DNA of 64,000 bases from Eledone cirrhosa (taxonomy: Eukaryota). Positions 6,961 through 60,620 of the stretch are shown here, piece after piece. Below the pieces are notes generated by a model. The model had not been told where the DNA came from. It saw only the letters and a program-made list of their open reading frames with translations, and did not search any database. Position 1 is the first letter of the stretch; each line of letters begins with the position of its first letter. The DNA is taken from NCBI GenBank assembly GCA_964016885.1, contig OZ024741.1, positions 61,256,001-61,320,000 of the forward strand. The letters run 5' to 3'. Made by a program: the position numbers and the translations under genes.

Positions 6961-7903
6961 TCATCATCATAATCACCGTTTTACATCCATTCTTCCACGC
7001 TAGCATGGGTTAGACGGGTTGTCCTGTTGTGGGCAGTGTCCAGTCGGCTAACCTTGTCTTGCTCATACAGGAACTGATTCTGGCTTGATTTCTACAGCTG
7101 GATGCCCTTCCTAACACCAACCTCATTTACAGTGAGTGCTGAGTGCTTTTTTTCCATGGCACCTACACCCACTTTACAGTGTGGGCTGGGTGGTTTTTAG
7201 CCATGGCACCTCCACGACCACTTTGCAGTGGGAGGGGGTGGAGGCATATTGTCTATATGCTTCAGCTTTGGCTTGTTCCTGTGAGAAGTCGAGTCTTCTG
7301 TATTACTGCATGATGCCAGAGGTCACGGTCAAGTGTCATCGCCCTTGAGATGTGCAATTGGGTAAGGTCGGCTTTTATCACCTCATCCCAGGTCTTCTTG
7401 GATCTCCCCACTCCACAGCTTCCATTGACTTTTAATGCTCTGCACCTTTTTATGCAGCTGTCATCCTTCATACGCATCACATGTCCATACCAACGTAACC
7501 TCCTCTCCTGCGCACAGCATTTGATTCCTCTTATGCTCAGTCTCTCTCTCAGTTCGTTTATGCTTTGCTGTTCGTGTATATTACTATTAAACATCCATCG
7601 GAGCATGCAAGCTTCTTTTCTTTCTAATCTACGCAAGTCTTCTACAGACAGCGCCCAGGTCTCACTACCATGTAACATTGCTGTTCGTATGCATGCATCA
7701 TACAGTCTGCCTTTCATTTTGAGGGAAAAGCCTTTTGCAGCTAGCAGTGGCAGTAGCTCCCTGAACTTCTTCCATCCCGTTCTTACCCTAGTTATTGTAC
7801 TTTCCGAACACCTGCCTCCACTGCTAATTCGGTCACCTAGGTAGCAGAAGCTGTCTACTGTTTCTACAGAGCCCTCCCATAGTTTGGTGGTGCTTGTTTC
7901 CTG
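6961..7903 (-). mobile_element. RTE-clade LINE subfamily A, 5'-truncated
   Basis: ORF 7262-7717 (AMLHGSETW, RRLRWYGHVMR, KKTW), 3' UTR with GGAAGGGCATCCAGCTGTAGAAA, (GAT)n tail. The 5' end abuts (TA)n. Confidence 0.9.
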
Positions 7904-16847: not shown

Positions 16848-17348
16848 TCATCATCATCATCACTGTTTAACATCCATTTTTTCCACACTAGCATGGGTTA
16901 GATGAGTTGTCCTATTGTGAGATAGGCCAAATCAGATGACCATGTCTTGCTCATACAAAAGTGATTCTGGCTTGGTTTCTATGGCTGCATGCCCTTCCTT
17001 AAGCCAACCACATTTACAGTGTGTACTGGATGCTTTTTGTCATGACACCTATATGACCACTTTACAGTGTGGGCTGGGTGTTTTTTGCTGTGACACCTAC
17101 ATGACCACTTTACAGTGTGGGCTGGGTGCTTTTTGCTGTGACACCTACATGACCACCCCAGAGTGTGGGCTGGGTGTTTTTTGATGTGACACCTACATGA
17201 CCACTTTACAGTGTGAGGTGGGTGCTTTTTGTTGACACCTACATGACCACTTTACAGTATGGGCTAGCTGCTTTTTGCTGTGACACATGCACAACCATTT
17301 TGTAGTGTGGACTGGGTGCTTTTCGCATTGACACCTACACGACCATTT

Positions 17349-17350
<2 letters not shown>
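16848..17350 (-). repeat. RTE/SINE 3' tail with expanded ~41-bp tandem array (about 8 units)
   Basis: Unit GACACCTACATGACCACTTTACAGTGTGGGCTGGGTGCTTTTTGCTGT repeated at about 17010-17350. Confidence 0.85.
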
Positions 17351-22787: not shown

Positions 22788-25465
22788 TCATCATCATCAT
22801 CACCGTTTTACGTCCGTTCTTCCACACTAGTATGGGTTAGACAGGTTGTCCTGTTATGGGCAGTGTCTGGTTGGCTGACCATGCCTTGCTCATACAGGAA
22901 CTGATTTTGGCTTGATTTCTACAGCTGGATGCCCTTCCTAACACCTACTTCATTTACAGTGAGTGGTGGGTGCTTTTTCCGTGGCGCCTACACGTCCACT
23001 TTACAGTGTGGGCTGGGTGCTTTTTTGCCGTGGCACCTCCACGACCACCTTGCAGTGGGAGGGTGTGGGGGAATATTGTCTATATGCTTCAGCTTGTACC
23101 CATGGGAGGTCGGGTACTCTGTATTACTGCGTGACGACAGAGGTCACGGTCGTGTGTCATCGCCTTTGAGAGGTGTAATTGGGTAAGGTCGGCTTTTATC
23201 ACCTCATCCCAGGTCTTCTTGGGTCTCCCCACTCCACGGTTTCCATTGACTTCTAGTGCTCTGCACCTTTTTATGCAGCTGTCATCTTTCATACGCATCA
23301 CATGTCCATACCAACGCAACCGCCTCTCCTGCACACAGCATTTGATCCCTCTTATGTGTAGTCTTTCTCTCAATTCATTTATGTTTTGTCGTTCGCGTAT
23401 ATTACTATTACACATCCATCAGAGCATGCAGGCTTCGTTTCTTTCTAATCTACGTAAGTCTTCCACCTTCTGCGCCCAGGTCTCACTACCATGTAACATT
23501 GCTGTTCGGATACACGCATCATACAGTCTGCCTTTCGTTTTGAGGGAGAAGCCTTTTGCAGCTAGCAGTGGCAGTAGTTCCCTGAACTTCTTCCATCCCG
23601 TTCTTACACTAGTTATTGTATTTTCTGAACACCCACCCCCGCTGCTAATTCAGTCACCTAGGTAGCAGAAGCTGTCTACTGTTTCTACAGAGCCCTCCTA
23701 GAGATTGGTGGTACTTGTTTCCTGTGGCTGTTTGCTGCTTGCTGTCCCAGCACAGCTGCTGCATGTGAAGCCTACATTCTTAATTAAGCTTCCTGAGATC
23801 CCGCTACATCTCTTGTGTACCCATTGTTTGCATTTGGGGCAGAGAATGGAGTTCCTACCTACACCTTTCCTACATACTGAGCAAGGCCATTTCCCTGAGG
23901 GGATCTGGGTTCTGTTTTCTCATCTACTTACAAGGACCTTAGTCTTTGTCATGTTGACTTTGAGACCCTTTCTTTCTAGTCCCTGCTTCCAAGTTTGGAA
24001 TTTATTCTCTAGTTCTACCATAGATTCAGCTATAAGTGCAAGGTTATCAGCATACAGGAGTTCCCATGGGCATCCAGTCTTAAACTCCTCCGTTATTGCC
24101 TGCAGGACTATGATGAACAGGAGATAGCTAAGAACAGAGCCCTGGTGGACACCACCCTGTACGCTAAATTCCTCGCTAAACTCATTGCTAATCCTAACTT
24201 TGCTGACTGCTCCCCTATACATGGCTTGTACAGCTTTCACAAGCCATTCATCTACTCCTAGTTTTCTAAGAGCCCACCAGATTACAGCACGTGGAACTCT
24301 GTCAAAGGCTTTCTCGAGATCAACGAATGCCAGGTAGAGTGGCTTACTTTTAGCTAGGTACTTTTCCTGTAACTGCCTCACAATGAAGAGGGCATCAGTG
24401 GTGCCTCTTCCTGGTACAAACCCAAATTGCATCTCATCTAGTTTCACCCGATCCCTAATCAACTGTGCTATAACTCTATAGTTTCCTCTATCTAGTGCAT
24501 CACCTTTACCTTTGTAGCAGTTGACAATGGTGCTGCTGCACCAATCTTTTGGTATGACACCTTCTAGTATTACCTGGTTAACAATACGTGTGGTTATAGT
24601 GTGACCTACAGACCCAGATGCCTTCAGCATCTCGGCAGCTATACCCGATGAACCGGTTGCCTTCCCAATCTTCATATCTTTGATTGCCTTACTTACTACA
24701 CTGCTGCTGACTTGTACTGCTGGCCCTTCTATAGGGTCTACTTGGGGTGGGGTCTCTTCTTCCCATGCATTCTCCTCATTTAGTAATCTATCATAATGGC
24801 TCTTCCATGCATCTTTCTTCTCAGCACTTGTGAGGGCAAGCTCACCTTTATCATTCCGGATACACTTCTCTCCAATGACATCACAATTCTCTCTGACACA
24901 CTGCCTCACAATCTTGAACACCTCCTGATTCTGGTCCTCACGTTGCTAAACATGCTTGAATTTTCTATCCTCTGCTTCCCTCCTAGCTAAGTATACTTGT
25001 CGCCTAGCCTCCCTCTTGGTCCCTATGTAATGTACCCTGCTCGCCCCGTTCTTCCATTCTTTCCATGCCTGTCTCTTGGCCTTAACTGCCTCATCTACCT
25101 TATTGTTCCACCACCAAGTCACTCTCCTCCTGCTTGTGGTCTTACTCCAGCCACAGATCTCATCTGTCGCCTCTAGTAAGTTATTTTTTAGGAACTCCCA
25201 GTGCTCTTGTACATTGAATGTCTCTACCTGTTCTTCTTTACTGTCGTAGGCGTTGAGTAAAATATCTTTAAATCTGTTACTGGCTGAGGGGTCTTTCAGC
25301 TTCCAGATCTTTCTTCTCCAGGTTGGCCTCTGTTTCCAGGTTCGTCTAGTTCTGACTGTGAGGTCGCTGACAACTAAGCTATGTTGGGAGGTACATTCCT
25401 CACTAGGGTAGGCTTTTGTGTTTATGACCGTCCATCTGTCACGTCCTCTGATGAGGATAAAAACT
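22788..25465 (-). mobile_element. RTE-clade LINE subfamily A, 2.7-kb 5'-truncated copy
   Basis: ORFs 24946-25491 (end of APE, SQHSLVV, TWWWN), 23920-24921 (RT: QFGFVPGRGT, DLEKAFD, QGSVLS, YADN), PHD, 23089-23415. (TA)n on both sides. Confidence 0.95.
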
Positions 25466-29558: not shown

Positions 29559-30330
29559 TAACCCTTTCATTACCATAGCTCTTATGAATGATACTGTCTA
29601 TTGTTTTCAAATAGGTTTGAAAATAATCAAGAATTTGGAGAGATTTAGTAATATAAATAACACTCTTATAATTAAGTTGGCCGCAGATTGGCAGCAGATT
29701 GGCAGCATCAGTGCAGTATAGAACTACAGCCCTTTATATTCTGAGTTCAAATCCCCTGAGGTTAGCTTTGCCTTTCTCATTGTTATGGGGGTTGATAAAA
29801 TAAAGCACCAGTAATGCACTGGGGTCAATTTAATCGACTTTCTTCTCCTCCAAAATTGTTGGCCTTGTACCTAAATCAGAAACCATTATCAAGTTGATGT
29901 TTGGAACATCATCATCATCATCATTTTACGTCCGCTTTTCCCTGCTTGCAAGGATGGGACGGGAACTGATTCTTGCTTGATTTCTACAGCTGGATGCCCT
30001 TCGTAACACCAACCTCATTTACAGTGAGTGCTGAGTGCTTTTTTTCCGTGGCGCCTACACGTCCACTTTACAGTGTGGGCTGGGTGATTTTTTGTCATAG
30101 CACCTCCACGACCACTTTGCAGTGGAATGATAGGGACCCCAGTCCTATCATCTCATTTCTACAGCTGAGTAAACTGGAGCAATGTGAAATAAAGTGTCTT
30201 GCTCAAGGAAACAACACATCACCCAGCCTGAGAATTGAACTCACAACCTTTCGATTGCAAGGCCAACGCTCTAACCACTAAGCCATGTGCCTCTAACATA
30301 ACAAATATTAAGACTGGTTTAAAGGTTATA
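29559..30330. mobile_element. piggyBac-like MITE interrupted by two SINEs
   Basis: Start TTAACCCTTTC is homologous to 45492-45725. Interrupted by SINE A (about 29680-29888) and SINE B (29907-30293), then resumes at AACATAACAAA. Confidence 0.6.
29907..30293 (-). mobile_element. SINE family B, full length
   Basis: tRNA-like head with A/B boxes, CORE-like body, RTE tail and (GAT)n. AACAT direct repeat at both junctions. Confidence 0.85.
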
Positions 30331-54866: not shown

Positions 54867-55116
54867 AGAGAGAGAGAGAAATGTGCATACAAAGAATTTT
54901 TATTGTCATATTCATGAAGTGAATACATTTTTTTTAAATCATTAAAATATGTAAAACAAACAATAGATACTGAAAGAAATTTATTCTAAAGTCTTTTAAA
55001 ACTGTAAAATTGTTGTCAAATGTGGAGATGGCTGGGTAACCAGGGTAGCTTTTTTAGCTTTTAGCATTCTGTAATGATTTAGAAGAAAATGCTAAAAATA
55101 AGTTTGTTAATTCAAA

Positions 55117-55620
55117 TCATCATTGATTAACATCCATTTTCCTATGCTAGCATGGGTTAGATGAGTTGTCCTGTTGTAAGCAATGTTAAGTCAGGTGACC
55201 ATGTCTTGTTCATATAGAACTGCTTTTGGCTTTGTTTCTACAACTGGATGCCCTTCTTAACACCAACCCCATTTAGTTAGTACTGGGTGCCTTTTGTTGC
55301 CATCATGACCACTTTACAGTGTAGACTGGATGTTTTTTGTGGTGACACCTACATGACCATTTTACAGTGTAGACTGGATGTTTTTGTGGTGACACCTACA
55401 TAACCATTTCACAGTGAAGACTGGATGTTTTTTTGTGGTGACACCTACATGACTACTTTACAGTGCGGACTGGATGTTTTTTGTGGCGACACCTACATGG
55501 CCACTTTACAGTGTGGACTGGATGTTTTTTTGTGGTGACACCTACACAACCACTTTACAGTGGGGACTGGGTGCTTTTTGTCACCATTACGACCACTTTA
55601 CAGTGTGGACTGGGTGCTTG
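55117..55620 (-). repeat. RTE/SINE 3' tail with ~42-bp tandem array (about 8 units)
   Basis: CCACTTTACAGTGTGGACTGGATGTTTTTTGTGGTGACACCTACATGA repeated at about 55305-55620. Confidence 0.85.
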
Positions 55621-55869
55621 TTTATAGCAACTCTTTGATAGGAAGATTGTTGAGAAAATTTGCAGTATTAACGTAAATACTTTAACATTTAATGTGATGC
55701 AATCATAGTGCTGTTTTGTACTTTTCAAGAATATCTTGCTAATGTGGTTTCATGTGCCTTCTTAATTCGAATGCTACACTGTCTTTACTAGTGGAGAGTT
55801 TCCCCTATAGTCTTCCTAGGGGGACAGGATAAGAGGCTCAACAGGACAAATATAACATCAATGACCAAG

Positions 55870-57340
55870 AATGAAGTATGGACTCAGGACCATATCAGCC
55901 AAACAACGTTTACTGAGAGAAGAAATTTAAGCTTTCAATAAGCAGTACAAAGTAGTACATAAGCAGTGAAAGAGCAGGCACCAAGGATCTAATGGGTCAA
56001 CTCTAGGAAAATCTCTACAGACTCTGAAGAGCAGGAAGAATACAGAAGCAGAGGAGAGAGAAGGACAGGAATAGGTATAAGTTTATTAAAGACCCTTTTC
56101 GATTCACCAGACAACTATGAGAGGAAGCAAAATCTGGGAGGTTGAACAACCTCAGAGAAGACGTAGAGGAGTTCTTGAGATAGTCACACAATGACCTACT
56201 CAGAAACCAAGCTATGGGCACCAACCCATTGGCGGAGCTGAAACACCCCCCAAAAAGCTCAACACCAGTGCACCATCCTAGAGGGAAATCAAAGAGGTGG
56301 TAAAAACAGCTAGAATGGGATCTGCCCCTGGCCCAAGCACTATATATTACAAGGTGTATAAGAAATGCTCATTGATCCTTCGGAAATTGTGGAGGTTCTT
56401 CCGGTTGATCCAGCGAAGAAGAACAATTCCATCATGTTGGAAAAAGGCAGAGGGCTCTTTTGTGCCAAAGGAAGACAACTCTTCAGTCATCAGCCAATTT
56501 AGAATGATCTCACTCCTAAGTGTGAACGGCAAGATCATCTTCTAAGTACTGGCCAAAAGAATGACTTGGAATTGGCAATTGTAACTGGCTGAACAACCAC
56601 AATCTCCCCCATTCTCTTCATAATAGGAATGAACCTCCTTTTAATGGTTGTTGACAAAGAATCCCAAGGACCAAGTGTGTTATTGGAGTCCAACAACACC
56701 GAATAACAGGTTTCATGGATGATCTCACTGTGACAACCACAATTCAGGAGGTGGTGAGTTGGGTGTGGTGACATGGGTAAGGATGAGGTTCAAGCCAAGG
56801 AAACCTAGATGTTTGGTGATCAGGAAAGCTAGAGTGATAGAGAAGTGCAGATTGCAAGTGAAGTAGGAGATTATCCCACCAATCCAGAGAAACCCAACAA
56901 AATGCTTGGGGAAGTGGTTTAATGACTCACTTTCTGACAGGTATAATATTAACAATACAGAAAGATAGACTGAGGAATGTCTGGTGAGAATTGAGAAATC
57001 AGGGTTCTACCAGCACAGTCTACTGTTGAGACTGATATGGCTGCTAACCATGTATGAGGTTGCTATGTCAAGAGTGGAGAGCATGGAAAGGTAGATCGAC
57101 AAATACCTCCAACAGTGGTTGGGAATCCCTCCAAGCTTCACTAAAGTTGGCCTCTAGATAAGATTAGGACAGCTTCAGATTCCCCTGACATCTGTGGTGG
57201 AGGAATCCAAGGCAACAAAGTGCAGAATGAGGATGATGTTTAAAGACTCACAGAACACACTAGTCGAAGATACAGGTGTCACAACAAGATCAGGACTCTA
57301 CTGTCACATGCCATAGCTAAGGGACATCATCAGAATAACA
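55870..57340 (+). mobile_element. Hero-like (R2/NeSL group) non-LTR retrotransposon remnant, RT region
   Basis: ARMGSAPGPSTIYYKVYKKC, WKKAEGSFVPKEDNS, QFRMISLLSVNGKIIF, TISPILFIIGMNLL, FMDDLTVTT, MRFKPRK, KCLGKWF, WLGIPPSFT. Many stops and deletions. Confidence 0.8.
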
Positions 57341-58145
57341 TGTATGATAAATGAAGGCTGGACACTGTCTGATGACATAAACACCTCCTGACAGGTGAAT
57401 GGGAGGCATCTTCTTGAAGATGTAATTATGTCTGTAAATTTGCTGTATTACAGTAGATAATTTAATATTTAATGTGATGCAGTCATAGTGCTGTTATACT
57501 TTTCAGGACTGTCTTCCTATGCTTTGTCAATTCAAATATTTATACTGCTAGACAGATTGCAAATATTCGCAAGTAAACTAAAGAATTTAATTTTTAATGT
57601 GATGCAGTCATAGTACTGTTTTGTACTTGCTAATGTAGTTTCACATAGTACAGGACACTAAAAGTTAATGTTGATTTTGTTGTTAAAACATTTGATTTTA
57701 CAGTATTGTGTCATGTTATTTTGTGTTTTTGTTCTTGTTGCTTTTTGTTAAAAAAATGTTTTGTTTGTTTCTAGTAGACACATCAGGAGTAAGAGATTTG
57801 TTTTGTAATCATTAGGTCCCATGATCAATCCCACTCCTGGACAATTGTTAACTACTATAGCCTCAGGATGACACATGCATTGTGTAGACAAGGTAGTATG
57901 GAGTCATTTTACAGAATATATTTTAAATATTACTATTGAATAACTGATAGTGCCTCTACTTCTACCCCCATCACTCATGCACACACCACAGATTAGAAGA
58001 GAATATCAGTGTGTACTGTGGGATAGCACAACTGACTAGAATAAACATTAGAAGCTTCTATATACAAACTCTGAAAGCTTCTATTGTTAAATGGATTCCA
58101 GAATACTGAAATTCAAACCCTATGTCCACTCCTAATCACACACTA

Positions 58146-58199
<54 letters not shown>

Positions 58200-58201
<2 letters not shown>

Positions 58202-58572
58202 CACATATTGTGTATTGAATAATATAGGGGATGTTTATGAAAGACATTTGACAGCCTTTTACTAAGAATTTTTAAGGTTGTGACAAATGTCATGCACCTA
58301 ACCTCAGCAAAATCAGGGGAATTTCATCAGCTCATAAACATAAGCAGAAATCTCTCAGATTCTAGTTTATTCTAACCTCAGAGGAATTGAGGAAATATGT
58401 AGTTTTGATAAATGCAAAACAGCAAGAAAAAATGCATTGTCAATTACTTCCCCCCTGCTTTCACTGAGCTTATGTGTGTGACATTTGTCACAATCTTAAA
58501 AATTCATAGCGAAAGGCCTTCAAATATTTTTTAAAAAACGTCCTGCATATTATTCAATGTACAATATGCACA
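58200..58572. mobile_element. Foldback MITE with ~120-bp terminal inverted repeats
   Basis: CATATTGT..ATTGAATAATAT...GAATTTTTAAG.TTGTGACAAATGTCA...CTCAG...CAGGGG (58200-58320) is mirrored at 58448-58572. Confidence 0.8.
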
Positions 58573-58734
58573 TATATATGTATACCACTATGTTGGAGCC
58601 CCAATACAAATTATATATATATATTCTGTATAGAAGTCTCAAAACATTAAATCATATATATATAGATATATATGTGTGTATGTAGATATTTATATCTGTA
58701 TGTATGTATGTATGTATGTATGTATGTATGTATG

Positions 58735-59185: not shown

Positions 59186-59188
<3 letters not shown>
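58735..59188 (+). mobile_element. BovB-type RTE 3' end with C-terminal C2H2 zinc finger
   Basis: 59049-59126 translates HKCSVCTRVFKSLAGLKRHTRSAHR*. Short UTR ends GGCCGTACTCGAAAACGAGTTGGCAGCCACCATG, then (TA)n. The 5' extent is uncertain. Confidence 0.65.
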
Positions 59189-59231
<43 letters not shown>

Positions 59232-59275
59232 ATGTATATATATGTATGTATGTATGTATATATATATATATATAT

Positions 59276-59664
59276 GAAAATTAGAATTGATGCTCTGTGA
59301 TAGCGATATATATATATGAATGTATATATAGTGTATTTTGCAATAGACTGTATGCTTAATTAGAAGCATTTTGAAGACCTTATGCTATTGTTTTAAAGTA
59401 GTGACTATGTCACTTACTTCTTTTTTCAACAAACAAAGGGAGATAAGCTGACAGATCTCTGTTTCATACTGTTGGTATTCCTCAGAGCTGAGCACTCCCC
59501 TTGTTTCTTGAAAATTATGAATGTTGGATTCTTATAGAATTCCAGTAATAATCAGGAACTGATTATACAGAGCGGTTCCCGGTCCAGCAAAAATTGAAAA
59601 TTAGAATTGGTGCTATGAAATAGCGATATATATATATATGAATGTATATATAGTGTATTTTGCA
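59276..59664 (-). mobile_element. Candidate retrozyme or Penelope-type pseudo-LTR: 320-bp unit with ~67-bp terminal redundancy
   Basis: Direct repeats at 59276-59342 and 59596-59664. Contains a hammerhead and several hairpins. No ORF. Left end in (TA)n. Confidence 0.7.
59423..59514 (-). ncRNA. Type I hammerhead ribozyme with extended stem I
   Basis: Minus strand: UUUUCAAGAAACAAGGGGAG UGCUC AGCU CUGAGGA AUAC caaca GUAU GAAA CAG agau CUG UC^ AGCU UAU CUCCCUUUGUUUGUUGAAAA. Core intact, GUC triplet, predicted cut between 59450 and 59449. Confidence 0.85.
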
Positions 59665-59719
59665 CCCTCCCATACATCTTCCATGTGGATAGTCTGAAGC
59701 ATATATCTAGTGAAGTCTC

Positions 59720-60236
59720 CAGCCCACACTGTAAAGTGGTTGTGATGGCAACACAACAAAAAGTGCCCACCCTACACTGTAAAGTGATCATGATGGCAAC
59801 ATGGCAAAAAGCATTTAGCCCACACTGTAAAGTGGTTGTGTAGGTGTCTCGACAAAAATCACCCAGCCTGCACTGTAAAGTGGTTGTGTAGGTGTCACAA
59901 CAAAAAACAGCTTGTCCACGCTGTAGTGTGGTCATGTAGGAGTCATGACAAAAAGCACCCAGTACTCACTGAAAAGTGGTTGTGTAGGTGTCACAACAAA
60001 AAGCACTCAGCCCACATCATAAAGTGGTTTTGTCAGTGTCATGACAAAAAGCACCCAGTACTCACTGTAAATGGGGTTGGCATTAGGAAGTGCATCCAGC
60101 TGTAGAAACAAAGCCCAAATCAGTTCTGTATGAGCAAGGCAAGGTCACCTGACCTAGCATTGCTCACAACAGAACAACTCGTCTAACCCATGCTAGCATG
60201 GAAAAATGGACGTTAAATGGTGATGCTGATGATGAT
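59720..60236 (+). repeat. RTE/SINE 3' tail with ~42-bp tandem array (8-9 units)
   Basis: CACACTGTAAAGTGGTTGTGTAGGTGTCACAACAAAAAGCACCCAGCC units, then GCATCCAGCTGTAGAAA and (GAT)n. Confidence 0.85.
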
Positions 60237-60620
60237 ATCATCATCATCATCACCGTTTTACGTCTATTCTTCCACGCTAGCATGGGTTAGACGGGTTGTC
60301 CTGTTGTGGGCAGTGTCCGGTCGGCTGACCTTGTCTTGCTCATACGGGAACTGATTCTGGCTTGATTTCTACAGCTGGATGCCCTTCCTAACACCAACCT
60401 CAGTTACAGTGAGTGCTGGGTGCTTTTTTCTGTGGCGCCTACACGTCCACTTTACAGTGTGGGCTGGGTGCTTTTTTGCCGTGGCACCTCCACGACCACT
60501 TTGCAGTGAGAGGGTGTGGGGGGCATATTGTCTATATGCTTCAGCTTTGGCTTGTACCCATGGGGGGTCGGGTATTCTGTATTACTGCGTGACACCAGAG
60601 GTCATGGTCATGTGTCATCA
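60237..60620 (-). mobile_element. RTE subfamily A 3' end
   Basis: Matches 22788-23160. Tail-to-tail with the previous element at GATGATATCATC. Confidence 0.9.

What the first reader, a model, noticed from the sequence alone, without database searches (positions are those of the whole stretch)
59276..59664. Intact extended hammerhead ribozyme in a 320-nt terminally redundant structured unit: candidate retrozyme or circular RNA
Seen: the minus strand has a perfect hammerhead core (CUGAGGA, GAAA, GUC). Stem II is AUAC/GUAU and stem III is ACAG/CUGU. Stem I is AGCU/AGCU, continued past an internal loop (UGCUC/UAU) by a 20-bp helix with one mismatch and a G-U wobble that pairs only on the minus strand. 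The rest of the unit holds further hairpins (ATGCTT..AAGCAT, AGTGAC..GTCACT, TAATCAG..CTGATTA, TGGATTCT..AGAATTCCA) and a long-range CTGTAT/ATACAG pair. It has no ORF, and its first ~67 bp recur 320 bp later. Established: type I hammerheads with a stem I internal loop contacting loop II are the fast natural form. They occur in Penelope-like element pLTRs and in non-LTR retrozymes, which make small circular RNAs. Inference: a ~1.2-mer insertion is what reverse transcription around a circular template would leave, so this may mark a ribozyme-based mobile circRNA family in this genome.
Basis: partly seen in the sequence, partly recalled or inferred. Interest (0 to 1): 0.9.

Follow-up and report, generated by a model that had tools for sequence, protein, structure and literature searches.

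The report
Hammerhead retrozyme with Penelope-type insertions
This is one slightly decayed copy of a genome-wide, protein-free 320-base repeat built around a predicted self-cutting RNA motif, and the shape of its many insertions suggests that Penelope-type jumping-gene enzymes copy it into TA repeats from an RNA that is likely circular, a step so far proposed but not shown.

Summary
Observation confirmed: a type I hammerhead lies on the minus strand (predicted cut 59450/59449) in a 320-nt unit repeated 1.2 times. It belongs to a dispersed family: at least 600 copies of one subfamily and about six subfamilies, down to ~63% identity, with compensatory changes in all three stems and the core 3:8 pair. 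No sampled copy flanks a Penelope ORF as its pLTR, so it reads as an animal non-LTR retrozyme. Insertions carry Penelope marks: two fixed starts ~35 nt apart at (TA)n, and head-to-head arms in 79 of 133 loci, 50 of 61 pairing one start with the other. Copies read through the cut (96 of 97) and wrap seamlessly (132 of 132), and both turns share diagnostic alleles. The template is therefore continuous: a circle (favoured) or an uncut multimer. This copy has one ribozyme and two helix I mutations, so it is likely a passive daughter. Cleavage, expression and the partner enzyme are untested. The scan noted similar families before, here and in other genomes; this sequence was not among them.

The parts
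59186..59275 (.). (TA/TG)n microsatellite at the insertion's start (RNA 3' side); inferred target and primer for reverse transcription
   Evidence: 155 of 193 family segments that start at one of the two fixed sites have a TA tract within 14 nt
59276..59595 (-). One full 320-nt unit (u1-u320), non-coding, subfamily A; predicted circular-RNA monomer
59276..59282 (-). Early start site of insertions (u~1-7); also a preferred stop site for 5' ends
   Evidence: 82 of 225 segments start at u<=12 or in the last 8 nt of the unit; 16 ends observed vs 4.8 expected at u1-8
59306..59315 (-). Late start site (u~31-40, internal TA run); u5-u38 is the optional ~35-nt Penelope-type 'tail'
   Evidence: 111 of 225 segments start at u24-46; junction sequences
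59423..59514 (-). Extended type I hammerhead: helix I with long extension, core, stems II and III
59479..59485 (-). Core CUGAGGA (C3-G8 form; subfamilies C, D, E carry U3-A8)
59449..59450 (-). Predicted self-cleavage site after GUC
   Evidence: sequence and hammerhead rules; cleavage not tested
59490..59507 (-). Two private substitutions of this copy (59490, 59507) that break helix I pairs kept in the family
   Evidence: (the other letter in over 95% of contig depth in run X1)
59596..59664 (-). Partial second turn (u1-u67), 5'-truncated end of the insertion
58189..58611 (.). Older two-armed (head-to-head) insertion of the same lineage, subfamily E, with a decayed U3-A8 hammerhead on the + strand near 58400-58445
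   Evidence: 63% identity to subfamily B, E=2e-13; inverted repeat I9; 815 candidates, best 75-83%

Best explanation
This is a 5'-truncated 1.2-unit copy of a non-coding, hammerhead-bearing repeat family (an animal non-LTR retrozyme) whose insertions carry Penelope-type marks, and it was likely written into a TA microsatellite by a Penelope-like reverse transcriptase/GIY-YIG enzyme copying a predicted circular RNA. Inferred cycle: (1) loci with two or more ribozymes are transcribed; (2) the hammerheads cut out a 314-330-nt monomer, which a host ligase closes into a circle (shown for coral, mussel and axolotl retrozymes, not here); (3) a C-terminal-GIY-YIG Penelope protein breaks (TA)n and primes both DNA ends on the RNA at two fixed sites ~35 nt apart; (4) each cDNA runs through the ribozyme and round the unit for a variable length; (5) the two cDNAs are joined head-to-head, or one arm alone is kept, as in this window. 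Shown: family, covariation, insertion anatomy, read-through. Inferred: cleavage, circle, enzyme.
For: Family: 1,896 first-look candidates, best 40 at 96-100%; 600 exact hits of one 20-mer, 0 for the reversed control. Ribozyme kept by selection: among 198 parsed motifs the 3:8 pair is C-G 152, U-A 42, other 4, and stem II pairs switch between C-G/U-A and A-U/G-C; 14 of 29 pairs change on both sides in 9 representatives, vs 6.7 in shuffles and at most 3 in slid controls; subfamily E changes helix I to AGUC/GAUU. Penelope marks: two start sites beside TA; head-to-head arms in 79 of 133 loci, and 50 of 61 classifiable pairs join one early and one late start (expected 49%, p~1e-7). An RT-GIY-YIG family of this genome ends at (TA)n with the same two-site layout, early+late in 4 of 4 two-armed loci. 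Continuous template: 96 of 97 unselected hits on contig C1 read through the cut; 132 of 132 wraps keep u5-37 and indels are not enriched at the cut. One variant per insertion: a minor allele in turn 1 recurs in turn 2 in 120 of 130 (A) and 99 of 112 (B) cases vs 0.37 and 0.48 shuffled, also in 1.x-mers (31 of 33; 52 of 61). Possible sources exist: 10 tandem pairs of intact ribozymes in 9 of 157 loci.
Against: Cleavage, expression and circularity are untested. A homogeneous uncut multimer explains read-through and allele concordance equally well, and in the anole Penelope element unprocessed RNA was the main template and ribozyme mutants did not block insertion (PMC11167929). No partner is identified by sequence: the tail of the candidate family does not resemble the retrozyme tail beyond the TA run (1,203 of 2,000 shuffles score as high). 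Allele sharing between inverted arms is weaker in subfamily B (26 of 46; shuffled mean 0.30, maximum 0.53). Most loci were picked as best or longest matches, so length distributions are biased. Covariation counts reflect a few subfamily events, not independent changes. This copy's predicted best fold is inactive.
Confidence: 0.65

Rival explanations
1. Same non-autonomous, Penelope-mobilised family, but the template is an uncut linear tandem transcript from a few homogeneous arrays; circles, if made, are by-products.
For: Read-through and seamless wraps fit equally. In vitro the anole element used unprocessed RNA (PMC11167929). Dimers, trimers, a 4-core locus and a 7-mer exist. The same genome is said to hold long arrays of other hammerhead units (earlier findings, unchecked).
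Against: The 7-mer is old (11-17% between units), has no TA start and has damaged cores. Among the 100 listed of 175 exact subfamily-A cores only one same-strand pair lies one period apart. No systematic turn-1 vs turn-2 differences appear outside the TA start. Linear copying only shortens arrays, so new alleles must pass a monomer bottleneck to reach both turns. It does not explain why the ribozyme is kept by compensatory change over ~37% divergence.
Confidence: 0.22
2. These are pLTR stumps of an autonomous Penelope element that was not sampled.
For: Tail, inverted arms, TA targeting and type I hammerheads are all Penelope features (PMC8557442, PMC4209133). The genome has 10,597 GIY-YIG candidates, of which only 40 loci were examined.
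Against: Copies wrap back into the unit instead of running into an ORF (132 of 132). Only 6 of 157 loci have Penelope ORF fragments within 1.5 kb, and those inspected are separated by TA tracts or unrelated DNA. The ribozyme is canonical with a 3-4-bp stem III, whereas the Penelope families seen here carry minimal ones.
Confidence: 0.07
3. The unit is a viroid-like circle that replicates RNA-to-RNA, and genomic copies are only incidental captures by Penelope enzymes.
For: Highly self-paired 314-320-nt circle fold with a hammerhead. Several co-existing variants change mainly in the ribozyme stems. Sequence heterogeneity of mussel circles led the authors to consider RNA-RNA replication (PMC7229834).
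Against: No ribozyme is seen on the opposite strand. The fold is branched, not rod-like. Conserved Penelope-type start sites persist in subfamilies A, B, D and E, which points to selection for retrotransposition. No strand-biased variant spectrum.
Confidence: 0.06

Closest known systems
Metazoan non-LTR retrozymes (coral, mussel, axolotl; Cervera and de la Pena 2020, PMC7229834, parts 2-4 of 6 read, supplement unreadable; vertebrate survey 10.64898/2026.07.22.740005, parts 1-3 of 5 read, supplements closed)
   Same: Canonical type I hammerhead in a 314-330-nt, AT-rich, ORF-less unit with no LTR; head-to-tail repeats; many dispersed near-monomers; coexists with Penelope-like elements.
   Different: The parts read describe neither two fixed start sites, TA targeting nor inverted arms, and no cephalopod. 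PMC7761336 (8 passages read) states that the repeats show no motif pointing to the mobilising element. Here long arrays are rare and circles are not shown.
Insertions of endonuclease-bearing Penelope-like elements (Craig et al. 2021, PMC8557442, 12 passages read; Frangieh et al. 2024, PMC11167929, parts 1-2 of 4 read)
   Same: 5' truncation, partial tandems, an inverted 5'-truncated copy, a 30-40-bp tail at one end only, two internal RT start sites, AT-rich/microsatellite targets, both DNA strands extended.
   Different: No ORF. Tandem junctions are seamless continuations of a closed 320-nt period, not restarts at the late site. The ribozyme is canonical rather than minimal.
Minimal pLTR hammerheads of Penelope elements (Cervera and de la Pena 2014, PMC4209133, part 1 of 4 read)
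   Same: Type I topology; the U3-A8 core variant described there recurs in subfamilies C, D, E and in one Penelope family of this genome.
   Different: Stem III has 3-4 bp and helix I has a bulge and a long extension, so monomer cleavage is predicted.

Membership tests
Metazoan non-LTR retrozyme | Canonical type I hammerhead (core, helices I-III) | tested here: met
   Rfam gave no hit
Metazoan non-LTR retrozyme | Unit of 150-450 bp, GC under 50%, no ORF, no LTR | tested here: met
   periods 314-333 nt. PBS/PPT not searched
Metazoan non-LTR retrozyme | Head-to-tail repeats with at least two intact ribozymes at some loci | tested here: met
   10 pairs in 9 of 157 loci; not met by the window copy itself (one ribozyme)
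Metazoan non-LTR retrozyme | Multi-copy, dispersed, mobile | tested here: met
Metazoan non-LTR retrozyme | RNA self-cleavage | not testable with these tools
   needs in vitro transcription; in the 2026 preprint only 1 of 9 predicted Xenopus dimers cleaved
Metazoan non-LTR retrozyme | Expression as monomeric circular RNA | not testable with these tools
   no usable RNA run; genomic junctions are seamless, so short reads alone would not prove a circle
Autonomous Penelope-like element (pLTR) | Repeat contiguous with an RT plus GIY-YIG ORF | tested here: not met
   sample only (157 family loci, 40 GIY-YIG loci)
Penelope-mobilised insertion | Two RT start sites / 30-40-bp tail at one end | tested here: met
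Penelope-mobilised insertion | Inverted 5'-truncated partner copy | tested here: met
   79 of 133 loci; absent at the window copy
Penelope-mobilised insertion | AT-rich / microsatellite target | tested here: met
   155 of 193 starts beside TA
Penelope-mobilised insertion | Sequence shared with the pLTR or tail of a specific autonomous partner | tested here: inconclusive
   layout shared with one family, sequence similarity not significant; clade of the partner not assigned
Viroid-like RNA replicon | RNA-to-RNA replication, ribozymes in both polarities | tested here: inconclusive
   no opposite-strand motif in the window copy; replication not testable

The most novel reading that the evidence does not exclude
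One Penelope protein dimer primes both ends of a broken TA tract on the same ribozyme-made RNA circle, at two fixed sites ~35 nt apart, and copies it round and round. The late-start cDNA tends to stall where it meets the early-start site (16 ends vs 4.8 expected at u1-8). The insertions would then be a genomic record of rolling-circle target-primed reverse transcription in an animal, and a 320-nt minimal substrate that explains the Penelope 'tail' and inverted pLTR.
Probability: 0.4. Interest if true: 0.8.

Novelty: new member of a known kind. Interest (0 to 1): 0.55.

Why it matters
Animal retrozymes are known to make abundant circles, but which enzyme inserts them, and whether the circle is the template, are only proposed in the papers read. 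This family supplies insertion-level evidence for Penelope mobilisation: two starts, TA targets and early/late paired arms. It also excludes the cut linear monomer as template. It gives a short defined RNA, defined start sites and a defined target for an in vitro test of circle versus multimer, and a hypothesis for the unexplained tail and inverted structure of Penelope insertions. The class itself is not new, and the scan has seen the same pattern in other families.

Tried and rejected
Rfam at two thresholds: no hammerhead match, a library miss and not evidence against. Sequencing-run search: no RNA holder listed; nothing follows for expression. Laying three contig runs of unrecorded kind cannot show ends or circles; it showed more subfamilies, and the family in a second organism (27 of 29 bins covered, one 160-nt contig across the ribozyme). 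Cut linear monomer as template: rejected (6 ends vs 4.4 expected; 1 of 97 ends at the cut). The drop from 600 to 415 exact hits across the cut is due to subfamily variants and decay, not truncation. Restart at the late site as the source of tandems: rejected (0 of 132). Rare-variant sharing between turns was not used, because a few loci, perhaps local duplications, drive it and one locus was counted twice. A conserved self-blocking fold: inconsistent (energy gap 0 to 7.2 kcal/mol in 8 of 11 representatives parsed, none of them B). Partner by tail sequence: not significant. The locus where a D insertion abuts a truncated Penelope ORF reads as a later insertion into the TA junction, not a chimera. 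The first representative alignment had mis-set coordinates and was replaced. No Penelope ORF lies in the window. No target-site duplication could be read, because the left flank is a microsatellite.

Full report
Observation. The minus strand at 59514-59423 holds a complete type I hammerhead, with the predicted cut between 59450 and 59449. A full descriptor finds it once in the window and never in 100 shuffles. The unit folds better on this strand (z -6.1 vs -4.0). Rfam misses it. The 320-nt unit (u1 = 59276) is followed by a 67-nt second turn at 91% identity and preceded by a TA tract. The window lies in a 3.0-Gb genome of 1,796 contigs. That it is an octopus is my inference from recalled repeat types and from unchecked earlier notes; it was not tested.

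Family. A search with the unit gave 1,896 first-look candidates, the best 40 at 96-100% identity. Exact counts are 175 for a 30-nt core of subfamily A and 600 for a 20-mer beside the cut, with 0 for reversed controls. Further subfamilies turned up: B (~80% to A, 314 nt; 2,646 candidates), D (1,923), A2 and C, and an old subfamily E with a copy 700 bp upstream in this window (63% to B). Candidate sets overlap and cannot be added. A second organism's contigs also hold the family.

The ribozyme is under selection. Among 198 motifs parsed from 157 loci (the parse requires a core, so intactness is conditioned), the 3:8 pair is C-G in 152, U-A in 42 and other in 4. Stem II pairs switch between C-G and U-A (91/83; 133/33) and between A-U and G-C (117/63). 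In 9 chosen representatives, 14 of 29 pairs change on both sides, against 6.7 in shuffles and at most 3 in slid controls; relatedness inflates this, and the true number of events is a handful of subfamily changes. Subfamily E also changes helix I. The U3-A8 variant is described in PMC4209133. The window copy has two private mutations in helix I, and its active fold is 5.9 kcal/mol above its best fold, against 0.7 in two intact A copies.

Insertion anatomy. I fetched 150 loci of subfamilies A-C and kept 133 after dropping 17 as duplicates; one of these, L023, was dropped for shared sequence although it lies at a different place. Most were best or longest matches, so lengths are biased. Of 225 segments, 82 start near u5 and 111 near u31-40, 32 elsewhere; 155 of the 193 have a TA tract beside them. 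The other end varies. 79 of 133 loci hold two arms head-to-head. Of 61 classifiable pairs, 50 join one early and one late start, 10 are late-late and 1 early-early (expected mixed share 0.49, p~1e-7); 18 pairs could not be classed. This matches the Penelope inverted copy, the 30-40-bp tail at one end and the microsatellite bias (PMC8557442, passages), and the two internal start sites and two-strand extension shown in vitro (PMC11167929, parts 1-2).

Not a pLTR, as far as sampled. The genome is rich in GIY-YIG elements (10,597 candidates, 150 listed). Three of four ORFs tested carry both RT and C-terminal GIY-YIG; the fourth is a fragment with GIY-YIG only. None of 40 such loci is flanked by the unit as its pLTR. 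6 of 157 family loci have Penelope ORF fragments within 1.5 kb; they are separated by TA tracts or other DNA (two judged from BLAST coordinates only). One Penelope family ends at (TA)n with the same two-site layout, early plus late in 4 of 4 two-armed loci among 25, and has a minimal U3-A8 hammerhead. Its tail is not significantly similar in sequence, so it is a candidate partner only.

What was copied. Of 97 exact hits on contig C1 for the 20-mer just 3' of the cut, 48 have the exact spanning 20-mer. The other 49 were fetched: 48 continue past the cut (one with a short deletion abutting it) and 1 ends there (hits, some being two arms of one insertion). In the hazard analysis of 169 ends, 6 fall at the cut against 4.4 expected, while 16 fall at u1-8 against 4.8. 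All 132 wraps keep u5-37, and indels are not enriched at the cut (3 vs 5.1; 1 vs 3.5). So neither a cut monomer nor restarting at the late site explains the tandems. At diagnostic sites outside the TA start, a minor allele in one turn recurs in the next in 120 of 130 (A) and 99 of 112 (B) cases, against 0.37 and 0.48 in shuffles; between inverted arms in 60 of 73 (A) but only 26 of 46 (B). Each insertion therefore copies one variant from a continuous template.

Circle or multimer. Both fit. The circle is favoured because long arrays are rare (dimers, a few trimers, one 4-core locus, one old 7-mer with damaged cores), because linear copying only shortens arrays while new alleles reach both turns, and because the ribozyme is kept by compensatory change in an element with no other cargo. 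Against it, unprocessed RNA was the main template for the anole element (PMC11167929), hidden arrays cannot be excluded, and no RNA evidence is at hand. Ten tandem pairs of intact ribozymes in 9 of 157 loci could release monomers; the window copy cannot. No sign of RNA editing written into copies was found.

Comparison. It meets the testable features of metazoan non-LTR retrozymes (PMC7229834), for which Penelope mobilisation from circles is proposed there and supported by co-occurrence and pLTR similarity in a 2026 preprint (10.64898/2026.07.22.740005). Searches listed no paper on cephalopod retrozymes or on retrozyme insertion ends; the library lacks most subscription papers, and unread supplements of both key papers may bear on this. 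The scan found the same pattern earlier in other hammerhead families of this and other genomes, but nothing like this sequence. Verdict: a new member of a known kind, with insertion evidence that makes an open mechanism testable; interest 0.55.

Noticed in passing
window 58189-58611: Old two-armed insertion of the same lineage (subfamily E) with a decayed U3-A8 hammerhead; shows the lineage has been active in several waves.
   Followed up: yes
window 59719-60510, also 55116-55619, 17007-17350, 7126-7230, 22953-23057, 30018-30124: Abundant repeat with 48-49-bp tandem units; at 59998-60476 it forms a head-to-head fold-back centred on an (ATC)n tract, a layout reminiscent of two-armed insertion at another microsatellite.
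   Followed up: no
L061-L100, L221-L245: Several RT plus C-terminal GIY-YIG Penelope families with minimal hammerheads near their 3' ends, ending at (TA)n; two loci (L086, L096) hold whole ORF arms head-to-head. Clade not assigned.
   Followed up: partly
flanks of L004, L005, L007, L022, L024, L104: Ends of other repeat families recur across the same TA tracts, often as fold-backs; TA microsatellites act as shared landing sites for several elements.
   Followed up: no
L272 (G000:C4:169.09 Mb): 7-unit array, 11-17% divergence between neighbouring units, no TA start, shared private variants; probably locally amplified and old.
   Followed up: partly
subfamilies A2, C, D, E: Stem III with its loop is fully palindromic in several subfamilies, which would also allow a double-hammerhead dimer fold.
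   Followed up: no
window 55800-57300: Decayed sequence that looks by eye like a non-LTR retrotransposon reverse transcriptase region; not tested.
   Followed up: no
window 55656-55723, 57436-57503, 57561-57628: Three copies of a 68-nt AT-rich repeat (79-82% alike) flanking that decayed region.
   Followed up: no
L216-L218 (G000:C12:11.68 Mb): One subfamily-D insertion is triplicated within a ~3.3-3.5-kb segmental tandem repeat.
   Followed up: no
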